A model generated the notes under the pieces. That model saw nothing but the letters and a program-made list of their open reading frames with translations, did no database searches and was not told the origin of the DNA. 64,000 bases of DNA from Eledone cirrhosa. Its lineage: Eukaryota. Below, piece by piece: positions 1,760-48,271 of this stretch. The position numbers were made by a program, and so were the translations under genes. The DNA lies in contig OZ024741.1 of the NCBI GenBank assembly GCA_964016885.1, positions 192,138,001-192,202,000 on the forward strand, read 5' to 3'. How positions within the stretch are numbered: position 1 is the first letter of the stretch; each line of letters opens with the position of its first letter.

Positions 1760-3586
1760 GAGTTGGAATATATATATGTATGAAAATAGGGAGAAAAAGA
1801 CGATTATTAGGAAGAAAAAAAATTTTTTTTTTCCTTTTATTTTTTAATCTTTTTTCTAGGTTAGAAAATGTTTAAAACAAAATATTTTACTTTGTGTTAA
1901 GGTATTAGTTAATTCATTTATTAATTAACAATGGCATTTATTTATTTATTTATTTATATATTTAATAATTGTCTATTACCGGTTTCAGCATTTTATGCAT
2001 TATCAATTTGTATTGGTGTAAAATGTAGGAGAGAAGATAATGTGATGTTGAACATGTTAAGAAAATGGGAAAGTAAGAATAATTTTATTTACAAACAAGG
2101 TTTTTGAAGTAAAAAGAAAAATAGAAAAAAAAGGGGGTGATTTAGAACATGATAAGGTAATGGGAAAGAAAGAATAATATTATTTACAGGCATAGCTCTT
2201 GAGGATAAGCAGTTCAAAAAGTGTTATTATGGCAAGAGCGCTTGGTTGGTCCATGATGGAGGCAAATGGTAGTCTGGGATGGATATGATTTCCCTTTTTA
2301 GAGAGTTAATATGCAGGGGAAGGTAATTCAGGGTGGTCTGGCAGGAGAGAGAGAGATGAGTGGGAGCAATTCATTTATATAAGAAAAAGGATTAGGTAGG
2401 GTTTTAGGGAGGTAACTCTTTAGAGAATATAGGAATTGGGGTTTTGGTTCATTGTTCGTTCCAGTTATAGTTTAGTCCGAAGTTTAGTCCATTAAGTGGA
2501 GGTTGGAATTTGTTAATGAAGTACGTTTCCTTATTGGTACGATGGATGAAAGAAGCGTTGTCTATGAATTTGTAAATGGGGAAAATTCTAAACTTTGGAT
2601 GTTGGTTAGGTGTACAATTGGCGATATGTTCACTAAAAGCAATCTTTCTGTATTCCTGTATTTTGATTTGTAATCTATGGACGGTCATACGTTGTCGGAG
2701 GCTGTTTTTTGTCTGCCCTATGTAGTGCTCTCGACAACCTGAGCAGGTCAAAACATAGATTAGGTTTTCAGATGCATATGTAAAGTTGTATTTAACTGTG
2801 AAATGTTGTCCGTGTTTAAAATGGAATGTTGAACCTTCTATTAGATTTATGCATATACCACAGTTGGGCCTTCCACATTTTTTTTACTGTAGGGTTCATT
2901 GTGAGGGTTGGTTGGATTTTGGCTTATGTGAGGATTTTTTTAATGGATTTAGGTTGTCTTTTGTTCTTTATGATGTTGTGTGTTTGGAGGATTTTGTTCA
3001 TTCTTGGGTCTCTTTTTAGTAAAGGATGTTCTGGAGGATGGTGTCGAATGCCCCATTGTTGAGGGGGTTGTGTGTGGAGATGTATGGTAAAGTTTTCTGT
3101 TGCGGTTCATTCCTGGGTTTGGAGTGTCTGAGTTCCTGGATGTTGAGCTTTAGGGCACATTGTTGATTGGGGATGGTGGATAGTTTCTGCTGATAAGTGT
3201 GTTCTTTAATTCTTCTAGTCGTGTGTAGCATGTGTATTTATCTGAAACTATTGTGCAGATCCTTCCGGCTAGGTTATAAGGAATTGCTATTTTGGTATGG
3301 CGAGGGTGGCACGAGTTAAATGAAAGATATTGTTTGGAGTCTGTGTGTTTGTAGTATATGTCTGTTTCTATTTTGGTGTTTGTTTTCTTGATGAGGATGT
3401 CGAGGAAAGGGAGTTGTTCATGACTAATCCATTGTAAATTGTAAGTTTGTGTTGAGTCCATTTAGAAGGGTTTTAAACTCAATCAGTCTTTCTATACTTT
3501 GATGCCAGAGGATGAAGCAGTCGTCCAGATATCTCTTCCAGTTTTTTCTATGTGTAGGTAGAAGTGATTACCGCATTTGTCTAGAA
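1760..3586 (-). mobile_element. Penelope-like element (Neptune-type), 3' part: RT C-terminus, Zn-finger linker, GIY-YIG endonuclease, 3' region with decayed hammerhead (~1973-2012)
   Basis: Frameshifted ORFs read WKRYLDDCF, LPFLDI...TDIYYKHTDSKQYL..SCHPRH, CGRPNCGIC and IYVLTCSGCREHYIGQT..LRQRMTVH. The left boundary is approximate. Confidence 0.9.
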
Positions 3587-3716
3587 CAAAGATTCTCAAC
3601 CCATTTCGGCCAAATCACGAAACGCCCCACTACCCTATTTTTGCATTTTTCAATATACTACTGATTTTGATATCAGTAGATTACTAAAAAATTGATTAAC
3701 GATATTCCAAAGATAC

Positions 3717-13749: not shown

Positions 13750-13958
13750 TGTATGTATGTAGATTTATATATATATATACATGTATGTATGTAAATTTAT
13801 ATATATATATGTATGTAGATTTATATATATATATATGTATGTATGTAGATTTATATATATAAATGAAGTAATTCCGTCGGAAAAGTCCAGGAAAAAAGAG
13901 TGCTCTATGTAGGTAACAGAGCTTAATAGTTATATAATAAACAACATAAGGCAATTAT

Positions 13959-14017
13959 TTCATTTACCAGTGGTTTCTTAAAAGCAAAAAAATGTTGTTT
14001 TCAATCATCAGAATGAA
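13959..14017 (-). ncRNA. Type I hammerhead ribozyme (mirror copy)
   Basis: UUCAUU-CUGAUGA-stem II-GAAA-CC-ACU-GG-UA-AAUGAA on the minus strand. Confidence 0.8.
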
Positions 14018-14077
14018 AAAATCCTGGTGTATTTATTGGCATTGGATTTTAAATGCCAATAAATACACCAGGATTTT

Positions 14078-14136
14078 TTCATTCTGATGATTGAAAGCAA
14101 CATTTTTTTGCTTTTAAGAAACCACTGGTAAATGAA
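14078..14136 (+). ncRNA. Type I hammerhead ribozyme
   Basis: UUCAUU / CUGAUGA / UUGAAAGCAA..UUGCUUUUAA / GAAA / CC-ACU-GG / UA / AAUGAA. All core nucleotides and three helices are present. Confidence 0.85.
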
Positions 14137-14189
14137 ATAATTGCCTTATGTTGTTTATTACATAACGATTTATATATATATATATATAT

Positions 14190-19873: not shown

Positions 19874-20502
19874 CTACATACATACATATATACATACATT
19901 TACGTATGTATATAGCTATGCATTTATACATTTGTATATATACATGCATTTATATTTAAGTGTATAAGGATGTTGATATGATCTATGTGTTCTTTTTTGG
20001 TAAGGAGAACAATTTTGTCGCCAGGTTTTATTACCTAGGGACATTAAATACCACACTGGCTGAAAACTGACCGGGTTCTCAACCTCATCAAACACTAATG
20101 CCGGCCTGTGTGTGGAGATATGTGTGTGTGTGTATGTATGTATGTGTGTGTATATTCACCACCATTGCTTCTTTTTGATGTCATTTCTGTTGAAGTAGTC
20201 CTTATTTTCATTCTCTTTGATTTCTTTTGATTTTCTTTTATATCCCTAGGGAATTCGTTGACAAGCTTCTTTTATTATTTTCTTCATTTTCTTCATTCAA
20301 ATCCATTCACACTGGCTGTCTAAGAGACGTACAAATATGACTTATACAACTTACCAAACTAAAGGGGCTTCTAACGCCCCCAAAGTTTCAAACATCCCCC
20401 TAACGCCCCCTTAATGCAAAACGACCCCCCCCCCCCCTGGAGCTAAGAAACACCCCCGGGGGGGGAGGGGGGGGGCATATGTCCCTCCGTTGAGAACCTT
20501 TG

Positions 20503-21590
20503 GTCTAGAACTTTGTGGTAGAGAATGGTTTCCAAATATCCCATGGCAGTCCCAAATTTCTGTCTGTAGTATTTGGCATCAAATTCGAAGAAGTTGTTTT
20601 CCAAGATGAATTTGACCCCCTCCAACACAAATTATTTAGGGATGCGCTGTGGAAGTTCACTAGCGAAATTTTCAAGCCAGAATTGTATTGCCTCTATACC
20701 TAGGTTGTGTGGGATATTGGAATATAGATTGATGATATCAAAGGTTACTAGTAGGGTATGTTCATTATTAAGTGTTGTTGGGAGGTGGTTGAGCATGTCA
20801 AGGTCGTCCCTTATGAAGCTTTTTATGTGTTTTATGAAAGGTTTAAGCAGAATATTAGGAAGTTGCTTAGGCAGTGGGTTTCACATGTGGTACCTACTAT
20901 TATGGATCTTAATTTAAGGTCATCAGGAGGGGGTATATTGATGTAAATGTCTGTGGTTTGCTTGCAGGCCCTGCCTATTACTTCGCTTTTGTGTGCCTTT
21001 GGGATACCGTAAAAAAAGCTGGTTCTGCTTTTGAAATTGGTGATGTAGTTGTATTCCTTGTCGGTAAGGCCTTCTTTGTAAAGGGTTGTTTGGGATTTTA
21101 GGTTTCTCATTATTTTCTGTTGTGTGTAGTGTTGGGCCTTTTCGTAATATGTTTGGTTTTCTAGAGTTGAGAGTACTAGAGTTGTGTAGTAATCTGTCCT
21201 CATAAGGACTACTGCACTCCCTTTATCCGCCTCCTTGATTGTTAGGGTTTTGTCGTTCTTTAGACTGTTAAGACCATTCCATTCCTTTTTGCTTGGGTTT
21301 GGTTTTTGTTTATGTCTGTGTAGGTGGTGGTATGGGTAATTAGTAATCTGTTCGTAGAATTGATCGAGGAATTTGTTCTTGCCTTTTGGTGGGGTATAGT
21401 TGCTTCTATTTCTGGCTATTGAGTCATCCTCATTGGATTTGTTGTATAGTTGCTCGCTGAGTCTTAGTTATCTACAGAATTCTGCAATGTCTTCCTTCAT
21501 TTCGGGGTAGTTTGATCGTTGGGGAGTTGGTGTAAATTTCAGACCTTTGGAGAGTATGTTGATTTGGTCTGTTGTTAAATTAACGATTTT
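20503..21590 (-). mobile_element. Penelope-like element (Neptune-type), 5' part of RT; joins 3586 across the hAT insertion
   Basis: IKEADKGSAVVLM, FYGIPKAHKS, LKLRSII, VTFDIINLYSNIPH, ILENNFFEF..YYRQKFGTAMG. Reads YHKVLD|KCGNH.. when the hAT is removed. Confidence 0.92.
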
Positions 21591-21604
21591 TATTACATTT
21601 TGTG

Positions 21605-45344: not shown

Positions 45345-46250
45345 CAGTGATATCTTGCAGTACAAGTTTAATTCGTTCCATGACCGAGCTCGGTTTACAA
45401 ATCAATTTTCCTCATTGAAATTAATTCAAATATAATTAATCCGTTCCAGTCCCCCCAATCATTTTTTATGGGTTTTAAAACAGAAAAGATGTAGTAACAA
45501 GGAAAATGACAATTATATAAACATAATAAAAGAGAATGCAAAAGAAATGTGTAAACTGCTTTTATTAATTTAATTACCTTAATGATGGGACAATTTGTGT
45601 GCGAGGACGATGATGGAGTGGGGTGGAGGAGGATTATTGTTTGGAAGGAGAATCTCCTTCCATTAAGACTTCAAGAAGAACAATTTCTGGGTTTTTCTCT
45701 CTCACTTAGCTTAATTTAGGGTTTTTGGACACTTTCTTCACTGTCCACACATTCAGATCGTTTCAATAGAAACATATCAAGAGAAGTCTGCTTTTTCCTG
45801 CCTTTCAAAATGTTATGAAAATGCACCATAGCAGTGTCATTAAATAAAGCAGCTGCACAACCTGTAGATACTTTTTCAGGATGATTTTTTTTCCACAAAT
45901 TCAGAAACATCCTGTCACTTGGTCAACACTGCCTTTATGTTACTCCTAGAGATTGCCTTCTCCGCTACAATGTCCTCCTCTGGGGAACCAATCTCTTCTA
46001 CTAATTATTATAAAATAAAAGCAAAAAACACACAAAACTAAAAAAAACTGGGAGAAACACAATAGGGATGCTGCCACAATGAGATAAACACGTGAGTGTG
46101 CAGTAGCTGTGCTTGTTGGGAGATTGTGTCTGAGCTCAGCACTTGTACTGTGGATTTCCACTTATACTACAAGACAAAAATTTGCATGAGCCTCGGCTCG
46201 TACAGCAAATTACTCGTACAATGGTGCACTCCTACTGTGAGGTTCTACTG
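45345..46250 (-). mobile_element. Tigger/pogo-like DNA transposon, internally deleted
   Basis: CAGT..ACTG termini next to TA; C-terminal HPEK..LFND..HF..ILKGRKKQTSLDMF. Confidence 0.75.
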
Positions 46251-46650
46251 TGTATATATATATATATATATATATGTGAATGTATGTATAGTATATTTGG
46301 CAATATACCGTATGTTTAATTAAAAACATTTTGAAGACCTTGCACTATCATTTTAAAGTAGTGACTATGTCACTTACTTCTTTTTTCGGCAAAGGAAGGG
46401 AGAGAAGCTGACAGATTCTGTTTCACACTGTTGGTGATCCTCAAAGAAAGGGGTTTTTCTGAGCCATGTAATATAATTGAATATAAAAGAGAGATAAACA
46501 CAGATATAAACATACATGTGTTCAAATTGTAAGGGACCAAGTTCGCTAGGGTGAAAAAAATACTAACTATAACAATATGGTTTGCCAGACTCAATTTAAA
46601 GTAATAAATCAAGAAAAAGAAAAACAAACTTATATTGGGCAACTGCCTGA

Positions 46651-46729
46651 ACACCCAGACAGCTTATGGTAGGCTGTTTCGCAATTTTTAGCGAAGGAAA
46701 TTACCAATTCTTTGCTCATTAGTGGGTGT
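46651..46729 (-). ncRNA. Hammerhead, core mutated (CUAAUGA)
   Basis: Mirror of 47213-47291 with intact GCAA/UUGC helix II. Confidence 0.7.
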
Positions 46730-47212
46730 AAAATTAGTAATCCCTCCACTTCTAAGTATCTCAGAAGACTGAATAGTGTGCGAATATAAAATAACGCACA
46801 TGGCATCAGAACCCAGCGTGTCTCATAAACATACGCTACTAAAAAAAAAAAATAGCAGCCATGTTTACATAACATTTAAAATAGCTCAACAAAGTTTGAA
46901 GGAACCGACTGTATCTCTCTTCAATTATATTACACTACAATTATATTACACGGCTCAGAAAAACCCCTTTCTTTGAGCTATTTAATTGTAAGAGACTATT
47001 TTGAGTTTCTAACTCAATATATACCTTTGATATAGTCGGCTCCTTCTAACTTTGTTGAGCTATTTTAAATGTCGTGTAAACTTGGCTGCTATTTTTTTTT
47101 TAGTAGCGTATGTTTATGAGACACGCTGGGTTCTGATGCCATGTGCCTTATTTTATATTTGCATACTATTCAATCTTCTGAGATACTTAGAAGTGGAGGG
47201 ATTACTAATTTT

Positions 47213-47291
47213 ACACCCACTGATGAGAAAAGAATTGGTAATTTCCTTCGCTAAAAATTGCGAAACAGCCTACCATAAGCTGTCTGGGTGT
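47213..47291 (+). ncRNA. Full type I hammerhead ribozyme (GUC site)
   Basis: ACACCCA / CUGAUGA / GAAA..UUGC / GAAA / CAGC-CUACCAUAA-GCUG / UC / UGGGUGU. Confidence 0.85.
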
Positions 47292-47481
47292 TCCGGCAGT
47301 TGCCCAATATAGGTTTGTATTCCTTTTCTTGATTTATTATTTTAAATTGAGTCTGGCAAACCATATTGTTATAGTTAGTACTTTTTTGACCCTAGCGAAC
47401 TTGGTCCCTTTCAATTTGAACACATGTATGTTTATATCTGTGTTTATCTCTCTTTTATATTCAATTATATATATCATAATC

Positions 47482-47790
47482 ATCATCATCATTTTACGTC
47501 CACTTTTCCCTGCTTGCAAGGGTGGGACGGGAACTGATTCTGGCTTGATTTCTACAGCTGGATGCCCTTCCTAACACCAACCTCATTTACAGTGAGTGCT
47601 GGGTGCTTTTTTGCAGTGGAATGATATAGACCCCAGTCCCTATCATCTCATTTCTACAGCTGAGTAAACTGGAGCAATATGAAATAAAGTGTCTTGCTCA
47701 AGGAAACAACACATCACCCGGTCTCAGAATTGAACTCACAACCTTTCGATTGCAAAGCCAATGCTCTAACCACTAAGCCATGTGCCTCCA
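47482..47790 (-). mobile_element. Full-length tRNA-CORE-like SINE with RTE tail
   Basis: TGGCTTAGTGG A-box, GAGTTCAATTC B-box, CCTTGAGCAAGACACTTT body, (TGA)n tail. Confidence 0.85.
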
Positions 47791-48271
47791 TATATATATA
47801 TGTTAGAAAAAAAGAGCCTTGCATAGCTAAAAACATATGAATGAATAAAAAATATGGGCAAAGACAGAAAACTGAATGAATACAGACAGTCCCATCTCAT
47901 CAGTCTACTGCTAGTGGTACATTGTTTAGAGCTTTAAGATTGATACAAATGGCTTTTGTGCACAAGGGACACAAATGGACAAAGGACAAGATGATAGTCT
48001 CAACGACTATTTTTAAATAAGAGAATATTTGCCACTAACCCGTGAGCTGCAACTCAGATTCTTCTACCCCCACTCTTGGAGTTTTCTTCACCATTTAAAC
48101 AAATTTTTCATGTGTTATCAACGAATCTGTCCTCTAAACCAAATGGAAACAACTAGCTTTGTAGAAAAAGGAAGGGAAAGGGGAGACCCTTTGAGTTTCG
48201 CAGATCTACACCTTCATTTGATGGGAAATAGTTTTTCTGTAGTTTTTTTTCAATCTGTTCTTCAAACTTCT

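What the first reader, a model, noticed from the sequence alone, without database searches (positions are those of the whole stretch)
46440..47472. Candidate ~524-nt retrozyme inserted as a head-to-head pair, with its tail-to-head junction captured on both strands
Seen: the + copy runs tail end (caattatatt, 46938) > CGGCTCAGAAAAACCCC body > full hammerhead > tail end (47462). The minus copy runs body > hammerhead > tail end and continues into TGGCTCAGAAAAACCCC (to 46440). The same junction in two differently permuted copies is what a circular or tandem template of ~524 nt predicts. There is no ORF. This is the strongest candidate here for an undescribed circular-RNA ribozyme retroelement family.
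Basis: partly seen in the sequence, partly recalled or inferred. Interest (0 to 1): 0.78.

Follow-up and report, generated by a model that had tools for sequence, protein, structure and literature searches.

The report
Hammerhead mini-Penelope element, inverted insertion
This is one decayed copy of a widespread, protein-free jumping element of about 520 bases that carries a hammerhead-ribozyme motif and sits at TA repeats with the end pattern of Penelope-type retrotransposons, whose enzymes likely move it; whether its RNA cuts itself or forms a circle is untested.

Summary
Two arms of one ~524-nt unit sit head-to-head at 46440-47470, 95% identical, with no ORF and a type I hammerhead in each. 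The unit is a dispersed family: 202 exact copies of the 27-nt junction and 1,144 core-motif matches genome-wide, 0 in both controls. Its hammerhead stems show compensatory changes across subfamilies. Copies end at two fixed points, the unit end and 74-88 nt further on, next to (TA)n. They are variably 5'-truncated, and 59 of 90 carry an inverted arm. This is the Penelope-like (PLE) pLTR + tail + inversion signature, so the element is a non-autonomous PLE of the non-LTR retrozyme kind, a described class. PLEs without hammerheads make the same structures, so it does not prove a circle. The map is closed and 44 of 137 arms read through the cleavage site, which fits a circle or an uncleaved tandem transcript. 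No autonomous parent was found in 50 PLE loci. Both local ribozymes carry substitutions. Expression could not be tested. New family of a known kind.

The parts
46440..46915 (-). Minus arm: 5'-truncated unit (unit 83-524, window 46915-46471) continuing into a tail cut short at 31 of 88 nt (46470-46440)
46651..46729 (-). Type I hammerhead of the minus arm; core reads CUAAUGA (G5>A at 46720), predicted inactive; predicted cleavage 46658|46657
   Evidence: effect of G5 change is recalled knowledge
46912..46951 (.). Head-to-head inversion joint: TATC microhomology (46912-46915), short piece of the upstream unit end, 14-nt direct duplication with a TA spacer
   Evidence: bridged by one contig
46947..47470 (+). 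Plus arm: one complete 524-nt unit ending at the family's first fixed 3' terminus (pLTR end)
46947..47034 (+). 88-nt segment that forms the 'tail' of other copies (second fixed 3' terminus at 47034); most conserved part of the unit (94% vs 88-92%)
47213..47291 (+). Type I hammerhead of the plus arm: 7-bp stem I, CUGAUGA 47220-47226, 4-bp stem II (C>A at 47228) with 27-nt loop, GAAA, 5-bp stem III, GUC; predicted cleavage 47284|47285
47471..47476 (.). Remnant of the (TA)n target, followed by (CAT)n and an unrelated very high-copy repeat
46270..46439 (.). Fragment of a different fold-back repeat that abuts the shortened tail; not part of the element
   Evidence: 75-94% matches, in both orientations, in several unrelated loci

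Best explanation
The locus is one insertion of a dispersed, ORF-less, hammerhead-bearing repeat family with Penelope-type ends, likely a non-autonomous Penelope-like element (non-LTR retrozyme) copied in trans by a PLE reverse transcriptase/GIY-YIG endonuclease. Shown: a closed ~520-nt map, two fixed 3' termini 74-88 nt apart, (TA)n next to both, variable 5' truncation, an inverted second arm in about two thirds of insertions, the tail on one arm only, and a covarying hammerhead. Inferred mechanism: the PLE protein binds an RNA longer than one unit (or a circle) and cuts both strands of a (TA)n tract. It primes cDNA internally at the tail end on one side and at the unit end on the other. The two cDNAs stop at unrelated points and are joined head-to-head by short microhomology or filler. 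The hammerhead would cut multi-unit transcripts into ~520-nt monomers that RtcB could circularise. I put about 45% on such a circle existing and about 35% on it being the main template; an uncleaved tandem transcript explains the DNA equally well. The likeliest helper is a Neptune-type PLE (about 60%), from target preference only.
For: Family size: 4,324 first-look candidates, best copies 86-92% identical. Exact junction 202 vs 0 control. Core pattern 1,144 vs 0 control, with 27 of the first 30 matching the unit profile. Ends: 73 of 90 junction loci stop at unit 70-89; 59 of 90 have an adjoining inverted arm, and 49 of those 59 end at the unit end. Of 60 loci with an inverted arm, the tail is on one arm in 51, on neither in 9, on both in 0. 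(TA)3+ follows 157 of 199 termini vs 290 of 2,096 background positions. Of 66 head-to-head joints, 28 overlap, 15 are near-blunt and 23 have filler; the two 5' breakpoints differ by a median of 134 nt, so this is not simple fold-back. Arms of one insertion differ by a median 5.7% (31 inverted pairs) and 6.2% (35 tandem pairs) vs about 10.8% to other copies. Hammerhead: 22 double-sided changes vs 6.7 shuffled in 83 copies (0/500) and 40 vs 11.4 in 32 copies (0/500). The majority unit folded as a circle has z -6.1. The genome is rich in RT + GIY-YIG PLEs, most with a Cys linker motif of the Neptune type. Two internal RT starts defining the tail were shown in vitro for a Poseidon PLE (PMC11167929).
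Against: No partner with shared sequence was found. The unit matched 5 of 50 PLE loci, each as a separate nested insertion: antisense, behind (TA)n, or about 2 kb downstream. The tail (74-88 nt) is longer than the 30-40 nt described for PLEs. Only 4 of 266 same-strand runs hold two whole hammerhead regions, 2 with both cores intact, and none has three units, so few loci could release a monomer. Alone, the majority hammerhead prefers a fold that hides the GAAA core (-23.4 vs -17.0 kcal/mol). Helices around the junction are 94% paired but show no covariation above shuffles (72-128/500), and RNAalifold gave no consensus pairs there. The shuffle control ignores relatedness, so the covariation counts overstate independent events.
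Confidence: 0.85

Rival explanations
1. The unit is the pLTR of a rare autonomous PLE, and all copies seen are 5'-truncated stumps of it.
For: PLE stumps outnumber full elements, and paired HHRs 100-700 bp apart on opposite strands are described as truncated PLEs (PMC4209133, passage seen). Only 50 of more than 10,000 GIY-YIG candidates were examined.
Against: After the tail, copies either stop at (TA)n or lead back into the unit itself; the window's + arm runs through unit 88/89. Among 136 loci, 40 free 5' ends and 16 free internal 3' ends share no adjoining sequence. All 20 further loci picked by the tail stop there. Diverged subfamilies (70-85%) are also ORF-less.
Confidence: 0.08
2. A circular monomer RNA, ligated at the hammerhead site, is the obligatory template.
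For: Closed map. 44 of 137 arms cross the cleavage site with no significant pile-up there (8 of 53, P 0.12). Runs reach 984 nt, yet no array of three or more units was seen. Segments within an insertion are more alike than background. Related retrozymes of coral, mussel and axolotl are abundant circles (PMC7229834).
Against: Uncleaved tandem transcripts or template jumps give the same DNA. For the Anolis PLE, HHR mutants insert equally well and unprocessed RNA is the main substrate (PMC11167929). 8 of 9 Xenopus retrozyme dimers did not cleave in vitro (bioRxiv 10.64898/2026.07.22.740005).
Confidence: 0.35
3. The head-to-head pair arose by a later local inversion-duplication of one copy, or by assembly error.
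For: The two arms (4.6% apart) are closer to each other than either is to any other copy (minimum 5.8%).
Against: Inverted arms are the family norm (59 of 90) with stereotyped outer ends. A contig bridges the joint. Shared template explains the similarity.
Confidence: 0.04
4. A MITE-like DNA transposon or satellite that happens to contain a hammerhead.
For: Insertions look like inverted repeats and sit at TA.
Against: Arm lengths differ at each locus, ends are asymmetric (tail on one arm), 5' truncation is polar, and the hammerhead covaries.
Confidence: 0.03

Closest known systems
Non-LTR retrozymes of animals (Cervera & de la Pena 2020, PMC7229834; Li, Clavereau & Pollet 2026, bioRxiv 10.64898/2026.07.22.740005)
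   Same: Non-coding, AT-rich unit with one type I hammerhead; predicted strongly self-paired; some direct dimers with two hammerheads; co-occurs with PLEs; length inside the 51-972 bp range of Li et al.
   Different: Mostly dispersed sub-unit to ~1.9-unit insertions rather than arrays; longer than the 170-400 nt invertebrate circles; 5-bp stem III and 27-nt loop II instead of a 1-2 bp stem III; shows the full PLE end signature (two fixed termini, inverted arm, (TA)n), which the parts of those papers that I read do not describe; no homologous autonomous PLE found; circles not shown.
EN+ Penelope-like elements: pLTR, inverted pLTR and tail (Arkhipova 2013 PMC3846280; Craig 2021 PMC8557442; Frangieh 2024 PMC11167929)
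   Same: Partial tandem, inverted 5'-truncated arm, tail on one end only, microhomology joints, hammerhead upstream of the two termini, (TA)n bias as for Neptune/Naiad.
   Different: No RT or GIY-YIG ORF; tail of 74-88 nt instead of 30-40 nt; the sequence after the tail returns into the unit instead of into an ORF.
Non-autonomous Chlamys PLEs such as MRC1 (PMC8557442, passage seen)
   Same: Non-autonomous PLE forming pLTRs and head-to-tail copies.
   Different: Those mostly resemble an autonomous family at the 3' end and most Chlamys lack a hammerhead; here a hammerhead is kept and no partner similarity was found.

Membership tests
Non-LTR retrozyme | Type I hammerhead in each unit | tested here: met
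   Covariation; core intact in 50 of 93 copies, core plus perfect stems in 15 of 93; both local copies carry substitutions
Non-LTR retrozyme | No protein coding | tested here: met
   Longest ATG ORF 58 aa in the doubled majority unit
Non-LTR retrozyme | Direct tandem units with at least two hammerheads | tested here: met
   Met only by a minority: 4 of 266 runs, 2 with both cores intact. Not met at this locus, where the two hammerheads are on opposite strands
Non-LTR retrozyme | Small, low-GC, highly self-paired unit | tested here: met
   518-524 nt; GC 0.36 for 46001-48000; circular fold z -6.1 for the majority sequence and -4.5 sense vs -2.4 antisense for the window copy
Non-LTR retrozyme | Self-cleavage of the RNA | not testable with these tools
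   Needs an in vitro assay
Non-LTR retrozyme | Accumulates as circular and linear monomer RNA | not testable with these tools
   No RNA run was available
LTR retrozyme (plant type) | Type III hammerhead in LTRs | tested here: not met
   Topology is type I (stem I open). PBS and PPT were not searched
Penelope-like element, insertion signature | Partial tandem (pLTR) with variable 5' truncation | tested here: met
Penelope-like element, insertion signature | Adjacent inverted 5'-truncated copy | tested here: met
   59 of 90; 66 head-to-head joints vs 1 tail-to-tail
Penelope-like element, insertion signature | Optional tail at one end only | tested here: met
   One arm in 51, neither in 9, both in 0 of 60; length 74-88 nt rather than 30-40
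Penelope-like element, insertion signature | AT-rich / (TA)n target | tested here: met
   157 of 199 vs 290 of 2,096
Autonomous Penelope-like element | RT + GIY-YIG ORF | tested here: not met
   No ORF in the unit; PLE-protein hits near 9 of 90 junction loci vary in position and orientation
Non-autonomous derivative of a named PLE | Sequence homology to the pLTR of an autonomous partner | tested here: inconclusive
   None in 50 PLE loci by blastn and nhmmer; this is a small sample of more than 10,000 candidates

The most novel reading that the evidence does not exclude
An old, independent ORF-less RNA lineage with no surviving parent element, whose circular monomer is the direct template for a Penelope-type RT that primes at two internal sites on opposite sides of a (TA)n break. 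Its >1,000 genomic insertions would then be a fossil record of target-primed reverse transcription on a circular RNA, and a ready system for asking what PLE hammerheads are for.
Probability: 0.3. Interest if true: 0.68.

Novelty: new member of a known kind. Interest (0 to 1): 0.45.

Why it matters
That PLEs mobilise animal retrozymes was proposed from shared features (PMC7229834) and supported by co-occurrence and pLTR homology in vertebrates (bioRxiv 10.64898/2026.07.22.740005). This family adds insertion-level evidence: an ORF-less hammerhead unit with the PLE tail, inverted arm and (TA)n target across hundreds of loci. It separates the cis signals (hammerhead, two start sites) from any ORF, so it could test two open questions: whether circles are retrotransposition templates, and how the inverted arm is made. 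It does not define a new kind of system, and this copy is decayed.

Tried and rejected
Rfam: no gathering-level hit; weak E-value hits were fold-back noise. Pfam PF26215 is not in the library. Expression: no RNA holder listed; this blank says nothing. The three runs laid were contigs of one sample, so depth was not used. Partner search: 30 GIY-YIG loci, 20 long-ORF PLE loci, 27 short-loop hammerhead hits and 30 long-loop hits. L033, L051 and L058 first looked like partners but are nested insertions in the (TA)n after another PLE; L248 is separated from its Penelope ORF by unrelated sequence and (TA)n. Pile-up of 5' ends at the cleavage site, expected for linear cleaved monomers: not significant (8 of 53, P 0.12). 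Loop II (UUGGU) with loop III (ACCA) pairing: above letter shuffles (0/500) but no covariation between copies (266/500, 56 of 115 rows parsed); rejected. Junction-spanning helices: no covariation. Rows left out: 10 of 93 hammerheads (gapped or paired duplicates) were not in A1. A2 used 26 of 30 loci, 5 and the window copy, nearly all chosen on an intact core, so core invariance there is by construction. A3 used 58 of 105 junctions. Three of the 35 tandem pairs come from one minisatellite (L126). Earlier scan notes: none for this genome or sequence.

Full report
Observation. The window holds two arms of one unit, head to head. The + arm is a complete 524-nt unit at 46947-47470 (unit position u = window minus 46946). 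The minus arm covers u83-524 (46915-46471, 95% identical) and continues into u1-31 (46470-46440). The arms are joined through a TATC microhomology and a 14-nt duplication; one contig of a public run bridges the joint, though the run may be the source sample. There is no ORF of note (58 aa at most from ATG). A type I hammerhead lies at 47213-47291 with predicted cleavage at 47284|47285, and its mirror at 46729-46651. Neither local copy is intact: the + copy has C>A in stem II and the minus copy G>A in the CUGAUGA core.

A dispersed family. The window comes from a 3.0-Gb animal genome; I took it for octopus-like from recalled repeat motifs, which no call tested. The unit gives 4,324 first-look candidates, the best 86-92% identical. 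The exact 27-nt junction occurs 202 times against 0 for the reversed control. A core pattern occurs 1,144 times against 0, and 27 of the first 30 hits match the unit profile. Diverged ORF-less subfamilies at 70-85% identity keep the same layout.

The hammerhead is maintained as a structure. In 83 copies 90.4% of cells pair and 22 show double-sided changes against 6.7 in shuffles (0/500); slid controls pair 22-41%. In 32 mostly diverged copies the figures are 93.1% and 40 against 11.4. The shuffles ignore relatedness, so these are not independent events, but several distinct swaps occur in stems I and III. The core is intact in 50 of 93 copies, with all stems perfect in 15. Stem III has 5 bp, unlike the 1-2 bp of most metazoan type I motifs (PMC4209133, passages), so monomer cleavage is plausible. 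However, the isolated majority motif prefers a fold that hides GAAA (-23.4 vs -17.0 kcal/mol). The whole unit folds far better than shuffles as a circle (z -6.1; window copy -4.5 sense, -2.4 antisense). Helices around the junction show no covariation, and a loop II-loop III pairing was rejected.

The ends give the mechanism. In 90 loci chosen only by the junction, 73 stop at u70-89, 59 have an adjoining inverted arm, and 49 of those 59 end at the unit end. The tail is on one arm in 51 of 60 inverted loci, on neither in 9 and on both in none. (TA)3+ follows 157 of 199 termini against 290 of 2,096 background positions. Of 66 head-to-head joints, 28 overlap, 15 are near-blunt and 23 hold filler; the two breakpoints differ by a median of 134 nt. 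Segments within one insertion differ by about 6%, against about 11% between insertions. This matches the PLE pattern of partial tandem, inverted 5'-truncated copy and one-sided tail (PMC8557442; PMC3846280; passages). It also matches the in vitro result that the tail lies between two internal RT start sites and that both target strands are cut and extended (PMC11167929, parts 1-2 of 4). I infer priming at u74-88 on one side of a (TA)n break and at u524 on the other, with the two cDNAs joined head to head. At this locus the minus arm carries the tail, later shortened next to another repeat, and the + arm ends at u524.

Circle or not. Naiad PLEs without hammerheads make the same structures, so the junction is no evidence for a circle. 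The stronger fact is that the map is closed: after u88, copies stop or return into the unit. 44 of 137 arms cross the cleavage site with no significant pile-up (8 of 53, P 0.12), so templates were ligated or uncleaved. The longest of 266 runs is 984 nt; 4 hold two hammerhead regions, 2 with both cores intact, and none has three units. Related retrozymes are abundant circles (PMC7229834, parts 2-4 of 6). But the Anolis PLE inserts from unprocessed RNA and 8 of 9 Xenopus dimers did not cleave (bioRxiv 10.64898/2026.07.22.740005, parts 1-3 of 5). No RNA data were available. The question stays open.

Partner. The genome has 10,597 GIY-YIG candidates. Sampled long ORFs carry RT, and GIY-YIG at the C terminus, most with a Cys linker of the kind Craig et al. 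tie to Neptune and microsatellite bias. The unit matched 5 of 50 PLE loci, all as nested insertions. Free ends in 136 loci share no flank, and 20 of 20 further tail-selected loci stop at the tail. No parent was found in this small sample; Neptune is a guess from target preference.

Comparison and novelty. It works like a non-autonomous PLE and meets the sequence-level features of non-LTR retrozymes; cleavage and circles are untested. Literature searches found no description of this family. An Octopus vulgaris repeat annotation does not contain the word ribozyme (PMC13282606, passages). Supplements, bioRxiv supplements and Repbase were not seen and may list it. One earlier AI note on a shark genome reports similar per-insertion mirror arms; it is a lead, not support. 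Verdict: real, a new family of a known kind, with unusually clear insertion-level evidence for PLE mobilisation. Interest 0.45.

Noticed in passing
window 13860-14170: A second, unrelated hammerhead element between (TA)n: about 310 nt, made of a 65-nt one-sided extension plus a ~246-nt palindrome with two head-to-head type I hammerheads with a short stem III. 1,760 first-look candidates; 41 full-length or near-full copies listed at 92-100%. Unlike the main family the overall length is nearly constant among these top hits (selected for full-length match), while the centre varies slightly.
   Followed up: partly
unit positions about 250-270 (window about 47200-47222): 5' breakpoints cluster just upstream of hammerhead stem I (9 of 31 at risk vs median hazard 0.093; nominal P 0.002 before correcting for the scan over windows). 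Possible RT stall, transcription start or microhomology bias; unexplained.
   Followed up: partly
L126 (G000:C1:268363575-268366601): An 83-nt piece of the unit (u426-509) is amplified into a minisatellite of at least 15 copies upstream of a normal junction and tail.
   Followed up: no
L083/L089 (G000:C2:194055619-194055911): One segment of a dimer 1.9 Mb away is 97% identical to the window's + copy while its partner unit is 89%; closeness to consensus, conversion or template switch not resolved.
   Followed up: no
window 2482-3587 and 20500-21593 (minus strand): Decayed fragments of Neptune-like PLE ORFs.
   Followed up: no
window 46270-46439; L032, L214, L016: Fragment of another fold-back repeat found as inverted pairs elsewhere; may be another non-autonomous element.
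   Followed up: no
L066, L070, L078; L232-L253: Other hammerhead families: one in loci of autonomous Neptune-like PLEs and a short-loop family at about 9 loci, neither homologous to this unit.
   Followed up: no
L033, L051, L058: 3 of 30 GIY-YIG loci have a copy of this family inserted in the (TA)n that follows the PLE's own 3' end, consistent with shared targets.
   Followed up: yes
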